Part shown: piece by piece, positions 21,907-24,841 of the stretch
Layout of the letters: the number at the start of each line of letters is the position of its first letter
Numbering within the stretch: the first letter of the stretch is position 1
Source of the DNA: a bacterium
GTDB taxonomy: Bacteria; Electryoneota; Electryoneia; Electryoneales; Electryoneaceae
Reading direction: 5' to 3'
Assembly: GCA_963669175.1 (NCBI GenBank)
Contig: OY769902.1
Coordinates: 864,001 to 928,000, forward strand
Length of the DNA stretch: 64,000 nt
Position numbers and translations under genes: made by a program
Notes under the pieces: model-generated
The model's database searches: none
The model's input: the letters and a program-made list of their open reading frames with translations, nothing else
Told to the model about the DNA's origin: nothing

Positions 21907-22161
21907 ATGAAGGAACACAAACAACAACACGATACCCAATCGCAACAGGGCAGGAATTCCGGCATGATTGTCTTCGCCGGTATTCTGATGGTTGCGGGCC
22001 TGATTATAAGCGTGATCAGTACCGTGGTTGTGTTGAAACTGTATTTCAGCAAAAAAGATGAAGCAGACCCGGTGATAGAGGAATCGTATATCGAACAGGT
22101 TGAGGCGTTACCCCTGGCGGAACTGCAAGCGCCTGACGGCTTGCTGGTGGAAATGGATTAG
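21907..22161 (+). CDS. Small single-pass membrane protein
   Basis: 84 aa, one hydrophobic helix, acidic tail. Confidence 0.6.
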   Translation: MKEHKQQHDTQSQQGRNSGMIVFAGILMVAGLIISVISTVVVLKLYFSKKDEADPVIEESYIEQVEALPLAELQAPDGLLVEMD

Positions 22162-22251
22162 TTCACGAAAGAAATGTTTCATGTTTGTGAAATCAGATTG
22201 AGATATTCCACGGTTTGATCTCAAACTCACACATTCTGATGCGACATTGTT

Positions 22252-22323
22252 TTCAAGATAGATTACATCCTCAAGACTGACTATACCTTCAAGACGGAGG
22301 TTATTTTAAAGACTGATTATACA
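22252..22323. repeat. Four degenerate 18-bp tandem repeats
   Basis: TTCAAGATAGATTACATC / CTCAAGACTGACTATACC / TTCAAGACGGAGGTTATT / TTAAAGACTGATTATACA. Confidence 0.7.
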
Positions 22324-22428
22324 TTTTTTGGGAGTGACTCAAGGTTTTTCTTATATAGCTACTCTTGAAAATAAAGCGTCATGATAGTATCCGACGAACG
22401 ATTCATAGGTGATAGGAAAGAAGCATAT

Positions 22429-22652
22429 GGAAAAAGGGGACAGTTTCCTTTCCCTGAAGCAAAGCCTTCCCGCTGTGAGCATGGACCGGGAAAGGTGGCT
22501 GTACCCTTTTTCTTGAGAGCAGGCAGGAATTACACGGAAAAGGGGACAGTTTCCTTTTCCATGAATGTCTCAAGCGTATTCTGTATGAGCGCGAGGAAAA
22601 GGATCCCGTCCCCTTTTCCCGGCAATCTCTATTATGACGGAATAAAACCGAG
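22429..22652. repeat. Cluster of GGGACAG/GTCCC palindromic repeats, interrupted by IS110
   Basis: AAAAGGGGACAGTTTCCTTT twice with partner arms AAAGGTGGCTGTACCCTTTT and AAAGGATCCCGTCCCCTTTT. Confidence 0.8.
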
Positions 22653-22739
22653 TTCCTATGTTAAACGACAGGCGCATCAAGTCGTGTTGGAACTGCTATC
22701 TTAGCAGTATTCCATTTTTCCAACACAAGGAGAAGCGCC

Positions 22740-23801
22740 ATGTCGAAGAACCAAGTTATTGCAGCGGACCGTTCATTGTCTATAGGTCTGGATGTTGATT
22801 CGCAGACTTCTTTCGCCGTTGTGCTCGACACCCAGACTGGTGAAGTGCTCTTTGAGAATCGGATCAAGCATGACTCAGCCGCTTGGGAACGCTTCTTTGC
22901 CCGTTTTCCCAACTGCCGCATGTGGGCGTGTTATGAAGCGGGCCTCACCGGCTTTGGCCTCTGTCGTTACCTGATCGGCCAAGGTGTTGACTGCCAGATC
23001 GCGCCGCCCAGCCAAGTTCCCAAAGGGGCGCAAGCGAAGCAGCAGAAGACCGATCATCTGGATGCCCTTACCTTGGCCCACATGTTCTGGACACCACCTC
23101 GTACCTGGGTACATGTCCCCACAGAACAGGAAGAGGCGGATCGTCAGTTGTCTCGCACCCGTGACCAGGTGATGAATGATCGCGTTCGGGTCAAAAACCG
23201 AATCAAGAGTCTGCTATTGTTTCACGGTTTACAGTCACCGTTTCCGCCGCAACGCTATTGGACAAAGGAATACCGGCGCTGGTTGCGAACGTGTGATTGT
23301 CTGGCTGCGACACGGATAGCCATTGATGTTGCTCTCGATGAGCTGGAGGCCATTGAACAGCAACTCAAGGTGATCACCAAAGCGATCAAGGCGATGAATG
23401 CGTCCGCAACGTATCGGGACCGTACCCAGCGCCTGTGCCAGGTGAAAGGCGTGGGCGAGCTGACCGTGAACGCCTTCGTGACCGAGATGTATCGTCCCGA
23501 ACGCTTCGCATCCGGTAAGCAAGTCGGCGCACATCTTGGCTTGACGCCGTGTGAATGGTCAAGCGCCAACACACGCCATATGGGACACATTACCCACTGG
23601 GGACCGTCCCATCTACGAAAACTATTGGTCGAAGCTGCGTGGCGTTGGGTGCAAAAAGATCCGTATGCAAAGAAGAAATACGATGCGATCCATGCCGGGA
23701 AAACACGGAAAGTGGCGATCGTCGCCATGGCACGAAAACTAGCCGTGATACTGTGGGCCATGCTGGTCAAAGAACAAGACTACAATCCTGCCTGCGTATA
23801 A
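22740..23801 (+). CDS. IS110-family transposase/recombinase (DEDD RuvC-like + Transposase_20)
   Basis: IGLDVD, YEAG, KTDHLDA, GVGELT, GLTPCEWSS, LRKLLVEAAW, AIVAMARKLAVILWAML. Confidence 0.96.
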   Translation: MSKNQVIAADRSLSIGLDVDSQTSFAVVLDTQTGEVLFENRIKHDSAAWERFFARFPNCRMWACYEAGLTGFGLCRYLIGQGVDCQIAPPSQVPKGAQAKQQKTDHLDALTLAHMFWTPPRTWVHVPTEQEEADRQLSRTRDQVMNDRVRVKNRIKSLLLFHGLQSPFPPQRYWTKEYRRWLRTCDCLAATRIAIDVALDELEAIEQQLKVITKAIKAMNASATYRDRTQRLCQVKGVGELTVNAFVTEMYRPERFASGKQVGAHLGLTPCEWSSANTRHMGHITHWGPSHLRKLLVEAAWRWVQKDPYAKKKYDAIHAGKTRKVAIVAMARKLAVILWAMLVKEQDYNPACV

Positions 23802-24000
23802 CCCCAGCACTGCTGGCAGGTAGGTAAAGCATAGATTGTGATTGAATCGTCCGATGCCATTGGGAACACGCGACCCTGGTAGTTATTCTGTTGCTTGACA
23901 ACGATTCGAGTTTAGGGCGCCGCTGTTCCGTGCGAACAAAAAACTTGTGCCACGAGCACGAATAGCAGAACGGCACATGGGACGATACAAAGGCTCTTTA
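23802..24000 (+). ncRNA. Candidate bridge/seek RNA in the IS right end
   Basis: Non-coding; stems 23846-58/23972-86 and 23874-79/23912-17 enclose segments matching the donor junction and target; boundaries approximate. Confidence 0.7.
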
Positions 24001-24056
24001 CACCCTTGACTGTTTACATAGCAGAACAGCTATACCAGATATGGTTAAGTTTTTGT

Positions 24057-24238
24057 ACTCCGCAGGAGTACGATAAGTGAGCCCAGGGTTGGCAAGTAGC
24101 GTACATCCTATTCCCACCGTGAGCGCCAAACAGACGGCGCTGGACGGTGGGCTAATTCAGGGAACCACTGCCGTGGTTCTTGCACTGGCCGTTCCATCAA
24201 GTATCACATTGAAATTCCAATGGTGAAATATCCGGGCT
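24057..24238. repeat. REP-like palindrome cluster (family B)
   Basis: Near identical to 63246-63399 and similar to 40860-41014: CCCACCGTGAGCGCCAAACAGACGGCGCTGGACGGTGGG, AACCACTGCCGTGGTT. Confidence 0.9.
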
Positions 24239-24361
24239 AATGGCAGATTAAACAAAAAAACGGGACCGACCCTGATGAGTCAGTCCCGATTTCAAAACAT
24301 CATGCTATCCGGACATCAGAATCGATGATATCCTTCAATCCTTGTTTTCTGTGAAGAGCTT

Positions 24362-24841
24362 CTAGTCATCGAGTTCACGCAACCGGCGCAGAATACCCAA
24401 TGCGCTATCACCCTGTGCGATCTGGCCGATTTTCTCCATTCGTGTCACATCCGCCTGGAATTTCTTCTTCATACGAGCTTCGTACGCGTCCTTCAGGGTT
24501 TCGATCAACTTATCCAGTTCGTACGGTTTTGGCAGATAGCCGAACGCGCCCAGGCGAGTGCATTCCACCGCGCTGTCAATAGAACCATGCCCGGTCAGAA
24601 TAATCGCTTCGAGGAAAGAGTTCTCTCCTTTCAGGATTTCCATGACCTCTCGTCCGTTAAGGCCGGGCATTTTCAGGTCCAGAAGAGCGATATCGAACGG
24701 CTGTTGACGCGCCAGTTCAATCGCTTTTTCACCATTTTCCGCCTTGGTGACATCGAAGCCACGCATTTCCAGCCGTTTGGCGATGGCGTCGAGAAACTTG
24801 ACTTCGTCGTCAACGATCAGGAGCTTGATGGGAGTGTCCAT
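24362..24841 (-). CDS. Response regulator (receiver + short tail)
   Basis: LLIVDDE, LLDLKMPG, ILTGHGS, YLPKP. Confidence 0.92.
   Translation of the reverse strand: MDTPIKLLIVDDEVKFLDAIAKRLEMRGFDVTKAENGEKAIELARQQPFDIALLDLKMPGLNGREVMEILKGENSFLEAIILTGHGSIDSAVECTRLGAFGYLPKPYELDKLIETLKDAYEARMKKKFQADVTRMEKIGQIAQGDSALGILRRLRELDD

What the first reader, a model, noticed from the sequence alone, without database searches (positions are those of the whole stretch)
23802..24000. Candidate bridge RNA with the target loop nested inside the donor loop
Seen: outer stem ATCGTCC..TGCC (23846-58) / GGCA..GGACGAT (23972-86) closes a loop. Its 3' side ATAGCAG (23962-68) equals the donor junction left arm plus core (7/7). 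Its 5' side TGGGAAC (23861-67) complements GTTCCTA (6/7 plus wobble). Inside, stem CCCTGG/TTAGGG and hairpin GTTG-cttga-CAAC frame a second loop: GTTATTCT (23882-89, 6/8 vs complement of AGAACAGC) and ATTCGAG (23904-10, 6/7 vs AATCGAG of the empty site). Both loops place the bottom-strand guide first. Known: IS110/IS1111 use bridge/seek RNAs. Inference: a programmable recombinase with AG core and best target near ATTCG-AG-AATAAC. GCTGTTC (23922-28) also matches the target but appears paired with GAACA.
Basis: partly seen in the sequence, partly recalled or inferred. Interest (0 to 1): 0.85.

Follow-up and report, generated by a model that had tools for sequence, protein, structure and literature searches.

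The report
Guide RNA of an IS1111-type element
The stretch after the transposase gene of this 12-copy jumping gene very probably encodes its guide ("bridge" or "seek") RNA, a kind of RNA described in 2024, so it is a well-supported but ordinary new example, with one of the four proposed guide segments probably misplaced.

Summary
The window holds one of 12 intact copies of a 1372-bp IS110-family element of the IS1111 type (22653-24024). Its 3' non-coding end folds into a structure kept in relatives. [quoted passage not shown] Helices covary: 71% of cells are paired, against 35-45% when the partners are slid.

- GTTATT+CT pairs with the right flank.
- ATTCG+AG equals the left flank plus core.
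- ATAGC+AG equals the right end plus core.

These segments covary with flanks and ends across relatives; no permutation reached the observed values for the two target guides.

The fourth guide, TGGGAAC, lies in a covarying helix and fits the donor only in this window (1 of 34). The family-wide right-donor guide sits just 5' of hairpin P4. So the RNA is a three-way junction with two like-built modules, not a target loop between two donor guides.

Durrant 2024 already notes donor nucleotides in a multi-loop for IS1111 elements, and Siddiquee 2024 reports the same guide order. Earlier reports in this scan describe guide RNAs of the same kind in other genomes. No expression data were obtained. This is a new member of a known kind.

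The parts
22653..24024 (+). IS1111-type insertion sequence, 1372 bp counting one AG core copy (24023-24); the other AG is at 22651-52
   Evidence: 12 copies in the genome share exactly this span. Empty sites join ..AATCGAG to AACAGC... A 1373-nt contig 22650-24022 has about 10x the depth of its flanks in runs X2 and X3.
22500..22652 (+). End of the dispersed ~150-nt repeat that is the main target
   Evidence: 116 BLAST rows; 72 copies with an aligned end, 66 of them empty with ..AG.
22656..22666 (+). Left subterminal inverted repeat CTATGTTAAAC
   Evidence: Read: it is the reverse complement of 24012-21 with one extra T. The same pairing is seen in relatives.
22657..22662 (+). -10 hexamer TATGTT of the predicted circle-junction promoter
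   Evidence: TTGACT (24006-11) + 13 nt of the right end + 4 nt of the left end gives a 17-nt spacer (read). TTGAC before the right end is kept in relatives.
22740..23801 (+). Transposase gene, 353 aa
   Evidence: Pfam PF01548 and PF02371. NCBIfam NF033542 'IS110 family RNA-guided transposase', 246 bits against a cut-off of 140. All 12 copies are open.
23846..23986 (+). Bridge/seek RNA core, closed by outer stem P1 (141 nt)
   Evidence: Model R1 scores 116 bits here and matches 69 of 85 sources. Covariation.
23846..23858 (+). P1 5' strand: ATCGTCC (P1a) + GA + TGCC (P1b)
   Evidence: Pairs with 23972-86. 6 of 6 P1a pairs and 3 of 4 P1b pairs have changes on both sides. The repeat finder I7.
23863..23867 (+).
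   Evidence: Pairs with GTTCC 23925-29 in the centroid fold. 4 of 4 pairs have changes on both sides in relatives.
23870..23879 (+). P2 5' strand GCG-A-CCCTGG
   Evidence: Pairs with TTAGGG-CGC 23912-20; helices 4 and 5.
23882..23889 (+). Right target guide GTTATT plus core complement CT
   Evidence: Perfect complement of AG+AATAAC, the right flank of 3 of 12 copies. Covaries with right flanks.
23890..23902 (+). Hairpin P3, GTTG-cttga-CAAC
   Evidence: A hairpin is present at this place in relatives, poorly modelled by R1.
23904..23910 (+). Left target guide ATTCG plus core AG
   Evidence: 6 of 7 to AATCGAG; TTCGAG matches the second target class. Covaries with left flanks.
23912..23929 (+). 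3' strands of P2 (TTAGGG-CGC) and P2ext (GTTCC); holds GCTGTTC
   Evidence: No family signal for GCTGTTC as a guide.
23939..23945 (+). Candidate right donor guide AAAAACT, the 3' end of junction strand J2/4 (23930-44)
   Evidence: Its reverse complement AGTTTT matches AG+TTCC at 4 of 6 here. In relatives identity is at least 5 of 6 in 15 of 34, and no permutation reached the observed value (0 of 10,000).
23945..23961 (+). Hairpin P4, TTGTGC-cacga-GCACGA
   Evidence: Helix 8 (80.8% of cells paired); also found by RNAalifold alone.
23962..23968 (+). Left donor guide ATAGC plus core AG
   Evidence: Equals 24018-24 exactly. Variant relatives change in both places: ATAGCTG, ATAGTAG, ATAACAG.
23972..23986 (+). 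P1 3' strand: GGCA + CATG + GGACGAT
24006..24011 (+). -35 hexamer TTGACT of the junction promoter
   Evidence: Read; TTGAC is kept in relatives.
24012..24021 (+). Right subterminal inverted repeat GTTTACATAG
   Evidence: Read.

Best explanation
Window 23846-23986 encodes the bridge (seek) RNA of an active IS1111-type member of the IS110 family.

Structure. The RNA is a three-way junction closed by stem P1.
- One arm (P2ext-P2) carries an internal loop, the target module. Its 5' strand GUUAUU-CU pairs with the top strand of core plus right flank. Hairpin P3 follows. Its 3' strand AUUCG-AG has the sequence of left flank plus core, so it pairs with the bottom strand.
- The donor module is built the same way in the junction itself. 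The 3' end of strand J2/4 (..AACU) pairs with core plus the first bases of the left end. Hairpin P4 follows. Then AUAGC-AG matches the right end plus core.

Mechanism, inferred by analogy with IS621 and ISEc11. The element leaves as a circle whose joint makes the promoter TTGACT-17-TATGTT. The transposase with this RNA aligns the circle joint ATAGC-AG-TTCC with sites like ATTCG-AG-AATAAC at the ends of two repeat families, and exchanges strands at the AG core.

Shown here: the anatomy, the covariation of helices and of three guides, and the insertion sites. Inferred: that the RNA is made, binds the protein and guides the reaction.
For: Element:
- There are 12 copies with open 353-aa genes.
- The protein matches Pfam PF01548 and PF02371 and NCBIfam NF033542.
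- The ends are fixed by 66 empty sites.

Structure:
- Model R1 matches 69 of 85 sources, all on the + strand.
- On that alignment 71.1% of cells pair, against 35.2-44.6% for slid partners. The covariation score is 0.313 against 0.056-0.096, and no shuffle of 500 reaches the observed value for four of the five measures; for the fifth, pairs with a change on both sides, 4 of 500 do.

Target guides:
- By alignment column, the right guide shows 4.40 of 8 identities against 2.24 permuted, 0 of 10,000, n = 40.
- The left guide shows 3.45 of 7 against 1.87, 0 of 10,000, n = 33.
- Without column anchors the values are 6.00 of 7 against 4.29 (n = 49) and 5.29 of 7 against 3.92 (n = 38), both 0 of 5,000. 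Control segments give no signal.

Left donor guide:
- It is identical to the right end in the window.
- The variants ATAGCTG (L055, L059, L061), ATAGTAG (L058) and ATAACAG (L094, L095) occur in both the RNA and the right end.

Right donor guide at J2/4:
- 2.65 of 4 against 1.65, 0 of 10,000, n = 20.
- Identity is at least 5 of 6 in 15 of 34.

Within the genome: right flanks within one mismatch of AATAAC are 3 of 7 occupied sites against 7 of 66 empty ones, Fisher p = 0.049.

Literature:
- IS1111 seekRNAs have the top-strand match 5' of the bottom-strand match, and a short form lies within a long form of about 150 nt (PMC11187229, sections 8, 9 and 14 read).
- Many IS1111 orthologues have donor nucleotides in a multi-loop (PMC11208160, section 12 read).
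- The IS621 loops are pseudo-symmetric: stem, guide, stem loop, guide (PMC11208158, passages read).
Against: - No expression evidence. The one RNA run (X1) covers only part of the gene, at 95-99% likeness, and all runs were held as contigs.
- No Rfam family matches.
- The alignment used for pair counts was fitted to my own structure, which favours it.
- Relatives are not independent, so the permutation counts overstate.
- The window's own right donor guide at J2/4 is weak: 4 of 6, effectively only AGTT.
- ATAGCAG is nearly invariant in the family, so its covariation rests on a few lineages. My search for right ends used its first five letters, which makes the LDG permutation test circular for those positions.
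- L056 has ATAGCTG in the RNA but ATAGCAG at its right end.
- In L035, L057 and L063 the flank that fits the right target guide starts 3-6 nt beyond ATAGC plus two. In L049 neither flank fits.
- R1 did not match the regions after the IS5075-like and two other plasmid-borne transposase genes (0 matches in 3 loci).
- For ISEc11 the short RNA alone sufficed for transposition (PMC11187229, section 14).
Confidence: 0.85

Rival explanations
1. TGGGAAC (23861-67) is the right donor guide on the 5' side of a donor loop closed by the outer stem, ATAGCAG is on its 3' side, and the whole target arm is nested between them.
For: In the window TGGGAAC pairs with GTTCCTA at 6 Watson-Crick pairs plus one wobble. 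That is better than the 4 of 6 of the J2/4 candidate. The aligned segment shows a weak family signal: 1.90 of 6 against 1.60, 165 of 10,000.
Against: GGAAC pairs with GTTCC 23925-29 in the centroid fold. That helix has changes on both sides in 4 of 4 pairs. The aligned segment varies freely (TTTCGGG, GGGACGG, GGCGG ...) while the donor right arm stays TTCCTATG or TTTCTATG. Identity reaches 5 of 6 in 1 of 34, the window itself. A match this good arises in 4.7% of simulated regions.
Confidence: 0.08
2. Only the inner arm (about 23863-23929, the 'short seekRNA') guides DNA. The outer part (P1, P4, ATAGCAG) is a processing or protein-binding scaffold. ATAGCAG equals the right end because both are one protein-binding motif, not because RNA pairs with donor DNA.
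For: For ISEc11 the short RNA was sufficient and the role of the long form was left open (PMC11187229, section 14 read). CGAATAGCAG is almost invariant in 69 matches, as a protein site would be.
Against: Where the RNA motif changes, the right end changes in the same way, in at least three lineages. The J2/4 segment covaries with the donor right arm. The donor module has the same build as the target module (read).
Confidence: 0.1
3. The conserved right end acts only as DNA, as transposase-binding sites and promoter parts, and no functional RNA is made from it.
For: There is no expression evidence. The -35 box and the inverted repeat do act as DNA.
Against: Helices keep pairing through changes on both sides in 26 of 31 pairs, and G-U pairs are strand-specific. 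DNA sites do not need this. Relatives of this family have been shown to bind such RNAs (PMC11187229, section 8).
Confidence: 0.03

Closest known systems
seekRNAs of IS1111-family elements ISEc11, ISPa11, ISKpn4 and ISPst6 (Siddiquee et al. 2024, PMC11187229)
   Same: The RNA is encoded downstream of the transposase gene. The segment complementary to the top strand lies 5' of the one complementary to the bottom strand, and they overlap at the insertion point. A target-reading inner part of about 70-100 nt sits within a longer form of about 145-170 nt; here the inner arm is 67 nt and the P1-closed form 141 nt. Also shared: subterminal inverted repeats, a circle-junction promoter and a repeat-element target (as for ISPa11).
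   Different: The transposase is only about 25-28% identical to the IS5075/IS4321-type proteins found on plasmids. Model R1 does not match three such loci. No RNA or activity data exist for this element. Here the donor-matching segments of the long form are assigned by covariation, whereas that paper left the role of the long form open.
Predicted IS1111-group bridge RNAs of Durrant et al. [quoted passage not shown]
   Same: The bridge RNA lies in the right end and donor-binding nucleotides lie in a multi-loop, not a simple internal loop. Guides of about 8-14 nt match target and donor.
   Different: I could read only the text and the legends, not the drawings. I cannot say whether their drawings place the right donor guide 5' of the hairpin as here.
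IS621 bridge RNA (Durrant 2024; Hiraizumi et al. 2024, PMC11208158)
   Same: There are two like-built modules, each made of a guide, a stem loop and a guide. The left guides carry top-strand sequence including the core, the right guides pair with the top strand, and the core is a dinucleotide. The DEDD and Ser residues of the recombinase are kept: D18, E66, D105, D108 and S274/S275 are invariant in the 33-sequence alignment.
   Different: IS621 encodes the RNA in its left end. Its guide order is left then right, its two loops sit in two successive stem-loops, and its core is CT. Here the RNA is in the right end, the order is right then left in both modules, the donor module is the multi-loop of a three-way junction, and the core is AG.

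Membership tests
IS110 family, IS1111 group (insertion sequence) | DEDD (RuvC-like) transposase with the PF02371 C-terminal domain | tested here: met
   PF01548 at 5e-18 and PF02371 at 1.4e-19. NF033542 scores 246 bits against a cut-off of 140.
IS110 family, IS1111 group (insertion sequence) | The longer non-coding region lies downstream of the transposase gene | tested here: met
   The right non-coding end 23802-24024 is 223 nt; the left one 22653-22739 is 87 nt.
IS110 family, IS1111 group (insertion sequence) | Subterminal inverted repeats of about 7-17 bp | tested here: met
   CTATGT(T)AAAC at 22656-66 against GTTTACATAG at 24012-21: 10 bp with one extra T, short and imperfect (read).
IS110 family, IS1111 group (insertion sequence) | GL-P----S(t)G motif in the C-terminal domain | tested here: inconclusive
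   The window reads GLTPCEWSSA: Ser-Ala where the consensus of 33 relatives has SSG. Siddiquee et al. mention occasional TA. All 12 copies are open.
IS110 family, IS1111 group (insertion sequence) | Site-specific insertion without target duplication other than the shared core; a circle-junction promoter | tested here: met
   12 insertions lie at ..CG-AG|..|AA.. sites of two repeat families. TTGACT-17-TATGTT forms across the joint (read). The circle itself was not observed.
Bridge RNA / seekRNA (IS1111 type) | An internal loop whose two strands match both strands of the target, overlapping at the core, with the top-strand match 5' | tested here: met
   23882-89 and 23904-10. Permutation tests are, none reaching the observed values.
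Bridge RNA / seekRNA (IS1111 type) | Segments matching the donor (the right end-left end joint) | tested here: inconclusive
   The left donor guide is met: 7 of 7, and variants co-change. The right donor guide is assigned to 23939-45 by family covariation but is weak in the window itself (4 of 6).
Bridge RNA / seekRNA (IS1111 type) | A conserved secondary structure with covariation | tested here: met
   with the caveat that the alignment was fitted to the structure I gave.
Bridge RNA / seekRNA (IS1111 type) | The RNA is made and binds the transposase; changing the guides changes specificity | not testable with these tools
   Runs X1-X4 gave no usable RNA signal.
IS621-type bridge RNA (IS110 group) | Encoded in the left end; two successive stem-loops, each in the order left guide, stem loop, right guide | tested here: not met
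   The RNA is in the right end, the order is right guide, hairpin, left guide, and the donor module lies in a three-way junction.
Any Rfam family | A match to a curated covariance model | tested here: not met
   cmscan of 22100-24400 at E up to 1 gave only four weak chance hits, all outside the RNA and far below their gathering scores.

The most novel reading that the evidence does not exclude
IS1111-type bridge RNAs may be mirror images of the IS621 type in mechanism as well as in layout. Both modules run right guide, hairpin, left guide, and the donor module is built into a three-way junction. In this genome all 4 copies that read GG at the right junction read the donor's AG at the left junction; empty sites of the repeat family that holds 3 of them have a GG core. 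This is the opposite of what top-strand exchange 3' of the core, as in IS621, would leave on the top strand. It could mean that the first strand exchange happens on the other strand, or on the other side of the core, in this group.
Probability: 0.15. Interest if true: 0.55.

Novelty: new member of a known kind. Interest (0 to 1): 0.3.

Why it matters
It adds a well-resolved, recently active IS1111-type element from an environmental bacterium. The element has 12 intact copies and two natural target families.

It also gives a covariance model that finds the same RNA after the transposase gene in 69 of 85 sources. That alignment assigns the donor-matching parts of the 'long' IS1111 RNA, whose role the experimental paper left open. 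It also shows that both modules share one build. The guide-to-site rules read off here (5 + 2 nt on the left, 6 + 2 nt on the right, AG core) would let one predict or reprogram its targets.

The principle itself has been known since 2024.

Tried and rejected
- Rfam scan: nothing relevant.
- RNAalifold on the plain MAFFT alignment found only P4, because the other helices were misaligned. I therefore gave my own structure to the model.
- The search for related loci in genome contigs with the single protein gave only 3 loci. The genome search over 60 relatives gave 2 further genomes with a match.
- Model R1 on three plasmid loci (IS5075-type in E. coli, an IS110-family gene in a Klebsiella plasmid, and a Rhodococcus plasmid) gave 0 matches with default filters. 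I did not repeat this with filters off.
- Sequencing runs. One metatranscriptome (X1) holds two 151-nt contigs inside the gene, at 95-99% likeness. X2-X4 are of unrecorded kind. All were held as contigs, so nothing can be said about transcription, RNA ends or circle joints, and no joints were listed.
- GCTGTTC 23922-28 as a second right target guide. The exact match has a 0.7% chance. There is no family signal: 4.24 of 7 against 4.18 permuted, 1501 of 5000. The segment is part of the 3' strand of P2ext. Rejected.
- Promoter scan inside the element: 0 sigma-70-like sites in 22500-24200. An internal promoter for the RNA is therefore not supported. The tool cannot scan across the circle joint.
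- Automatic left-end finding failed twice before a gapped search worked. L031 and about 20 distant loci were left without a left end and are missing from the left-flank and donor tests.
- Rows dropped before counts. Only one row per identical guide string was kept. Loci lacking a flank of the needed length were left out. Misaligned rows (for example L113, L116, L106) were kept in the column-based tests.
- The figures and supplements of Durrant 2024 and Siddiquee 2024 (Extended Data Fig. 10c, Supplementary Figs 6-7, Supplementary Table 5) were not seen. I did not ask for the supplements. They may already show this topology.

Full report
**The element.** The ORF 22740-23801 (+) encodes a 353-aa protein. 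It matches Pfam DEDD_Tnp_IS110 and Transposase_20 and the NCBIfam equivalog 'IS110 family RNA-guided transposase' at 246 bits against a cut-off of 140.

The genome holds 12 copies at 98.9-100% identity, all with open frames. Comparing the copies and their flanks with empty copies of the flanking repeat fixes the ends:
- Left junction: ..AATCG-AG|TTCCTATG.
- Right junction: ..ACATAGC-AG|AACAGCTATA.
- Empty site: ..AATCG-AG-AACAGCTATA.

The element is therefore 22653-24024, 1372 bp with one copy of the AG core. In runs X2 and X3 a contig of 1373 nt covers 22650-24022 at about ten times the depth of its flanks, which agrees.

Short subterminal inverted repeats are present: 22656-66 against 24012-21. 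Joining the ends makes TTGACT, a 17-nt spacer and TATGTT (read). The longer non-coding end lies downstream of the gene. These are the marks of the IS1111 group (PMC11187229, section 6; PMC11208160, section 12).

**Targets.** Seven copies sit at the end of a ~150-nt dispersed repeat. Of 72 repeat ends that aligned, 66 are empty, and 51 of those 66 read AATCGAG.

Three further copies sit at the end of a second repeat family made of 18-nt units. Its empty ends read ..CTTTCG-GG-AACNNCTATA. Two copies are at single sites.

Right flanks of the 12 copies are AACAGC (4), AACAAC (4), AATAAC (3) and AATTTC (1).

**The observation.** RNAfold of 23840-23992 gives the outer stem, the CCCTGG/TTAGGG stem and both hairpins, with z = -2.4. 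The full 223 nt is not unusually stable, z = -1.05.

In simulated regions the exact ATAGCAG occurs in 1.2% and a TGGGAAC-like pairing in 4.7%. The window alone therefore does not prove the target guides.

**Relatives.** A protein search found 803 proteins at E up to 1e-30. From an alignment of 33 of them, a scan of metagenome contigs returned 80 loci, and two genomes of relatives gave more.

The regions after the stop codon align. By eye they share one build:
- an outer stem P1 in two parts;
- a long arm (P2ext and P2) with an internal loop capped by hairpin P3;
- an A-rich strand with CGAA;
- hairpin P4;
- the nearly invariant CGAATAGCAG;
- the 3' strand of P1.

I wrote this structure onto the alignment and built model R1. 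R1 matches 69 of 85 sources, always on the + strand. In the own genome it matches the 12 copies and nothing else.

On the resulting alignment 71.1% of cells are standard pairs, against 35.2-44.6% for partners slid by 1-3 columns. The covariation score is 0.313 against 0.056-0.096. Of 31 pairs, 26 have changes on both sides. P1a has 6 of 6, P1b 3 of 4 and P2ext 4 of 4. The alignment was fitted to my structure, which favours it, but the gap to the slid controls is large, and RNAalifold found P4 without my help.

**Target guides.** For each locus I located the right end and, where possible, the left end.

Using alignment columns only:
- The 8 nt before the conserved CU-G of the loop's 5' strand are complementary to the right flank: 4.40 of 8 on average against 2.24 after permuting flanks among 40 loci with distinct guides, 0 of 10,000.
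- The 7 nt before the conserved AG of the 3' strand equal the left flank: 3.45 of 7 against 1.87, n = 33, 0 of 10,000.

Without column anchors:
- The best 7-mer match is 6.00 against 4.29. It is 7 of 7 in 21 of 49 loci.
- For the left flank it is 5.29 against 3.92.
- Both reach 0 of 5,000. The same flanks find nothing in a control segment (1501 and 4717 of 5,000).

GTTATT-CT is the exact complement of AG-AATAAC, and ATTCG-AG is one letter from the common left flank.

In the genome, sites within one mismatch of AATAAC are 3 of 7 occupied against 7 of 66 empty (Fisher p = 0.049). This is a weak hint that sites closer to the guide are preferred.

The order, with the guide for the top strand first, is the one reported for IS1111 seekRNAs (PMC11187229, section 9).

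**Donor guides.** ATAGC-AG after P4 equals the last seven bases of the element plus core. The motif is nearly invariant, but where it differs the right end differs in the same way:
- ATAGCTG in L055, L059 and L061;
- ATAGTAG in L058;
- ATAACAG in L094 and L095.

In L059, L094 and L095 the end is fixed independently by 7-8 of 8 matches of the flank to the right target guide. L056 is an exception at the first core base. My permutation test for this guide is circular for five positions and I do not lean on it.

GGAAC of TGGGAAC pairs with GTTCC 23925-29 in the centroid fold. That helix covaries. The aligned segment differs widely among relatives whose left ends all begin TTCCTATG or TTTCTATG. It reaches 5 of 6 against the donor in 1 of 34 distinct guide-donor pairs, the window itself, with a family-wide signal of 1.90 of 6 against 1.60 (165 of 10,000).

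The six bases that end at the first base of P4 behave differently. They are complementary to core plus the first four bases of the left end at 5 of 6 or better in 15 of 34 and at 6 of 6 in 6 of 34. They follow the donor across clades: TTTC with GAAA, AGTC with AACU, ATAG with CUAU, ATAC with GUAU. The signal is 2.65 of 4 against 1.65, 0 of 10,000, n = 20.

In the window this segment, AAAACU, fits only AGTT. That is the weak point of my assignment.

With this placement the two modules have one build: [right guide]-CU-hairpin-(G/A)-[5-nt left guide]-AG. This is the pseudo-symmetry described for the two loops of IS621, with the guide order reversed (PMC11208158, bRNA architecture passage).

**What it is.** It is the bridge or seek RNA of an IS1111-type element. 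The outer stem does enclose both modules and the donor guides lie in the multi-loop, so 'nested' is half right. But the target arm is beside the donor module, not between its two guides.

[quoted passage not shown] Siddiquee et al. found short target-reading RNAs within long forms of 145-170 nt, whose role they left open (PMC11187229, section 14). Two full-text searches found no paper with an experimental structure of an IS1111-type RNA; they are no proof that none exists.

Earlier reports of this scan describe the same kind of RNA in other genomes (ISSso6, ISEc81, ISEc45).

**Limits.**
- There is no evidence of transcription.
- Relatives are not independent.
- Several close relatives (L035, L057, L063) have right ends whose flank match starts a few bases further out, and L049 fits neither flank. 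I cannot explain these from single metagenome contigs.
- Figures and supplements of the key papers were not seen.

**Verdict.** It is a new member of a known kind.

Noticed in passing
window 22651-52 and 24023-24; genome copies 7-10: Empty sites of the second target family have a GG core. The 4 of 12 copies with G at 24023 all read AG at the left junction and GG at the right junction. Three of them lie in the second target family and one at a single site. So the donor's core base ends up on the left and the target's on the right.
   Followed up: partly
window 22671-22739: The leader of the transposase gene can form a long hairpin, 22671-92 with 22718-39, that covers the ribosome-binding site AAGGAG (22727-32). 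Its tip is the palindrome CTGCTATCTTAGCAG (22693-22707), which contains the reverse complement of ATAGCAG, the right end and left donor guide (repeat finder I2 and I5; terminator-like hit). A CTGCTAT-like motif is kept in the leaders of L048/L031, L051 and L057 but not of L053-L059.
   Followed up: partly
window 23945: This is the only variable base of the RNA region among the 12 copies: T in 9 and C in 3. It is the first base of P4 and the U of the CU that would face the core.
   Followed up: no
window 23559-23567 (protein residues 274-276): The transposase reads Ser-Ser-Ala where the consensus of 33 relatives has Ser-Ser-Gly, the SG motif reported as needed in the related Piv invertase (PMC11187229, section 6). 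Even so, 12 near-identical copies at different sites argue for recent activity.
   Followed up: no
genome C1:4232934-4233080 and C1:3016950-3017190: The second target family ends arrays of tandem 18-nt units (..ATCGAATCAGCAATAGAC..) that follow a GCCTGCTGAAGCAGGC palindrome. Many copies are spread over the genome.
   Followed up: no
window 24083-24200: Another dispersed repeat begins about 60 nt after the element. At least 10 further copies at 96-99% identity lie elsewhere in the genome.
   Followed up: no
L120:1318-1430: A distant relative of the element is inserted next to ..GTCGCAGGTTCAAATCC.., which looks like the T-arm of a tRNA gene. Its right target guide matches this flank 8 of 8 by eye.
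   Followed up: no
window 22433-22628: Weak Rfam 'microRNA' hits (21-24 bits against gathering scores of 88-99) fall on the palindromic GGGAC...GTCCC units of the target repeat. They are chance matches to long hairpins.
   Followed up: yes
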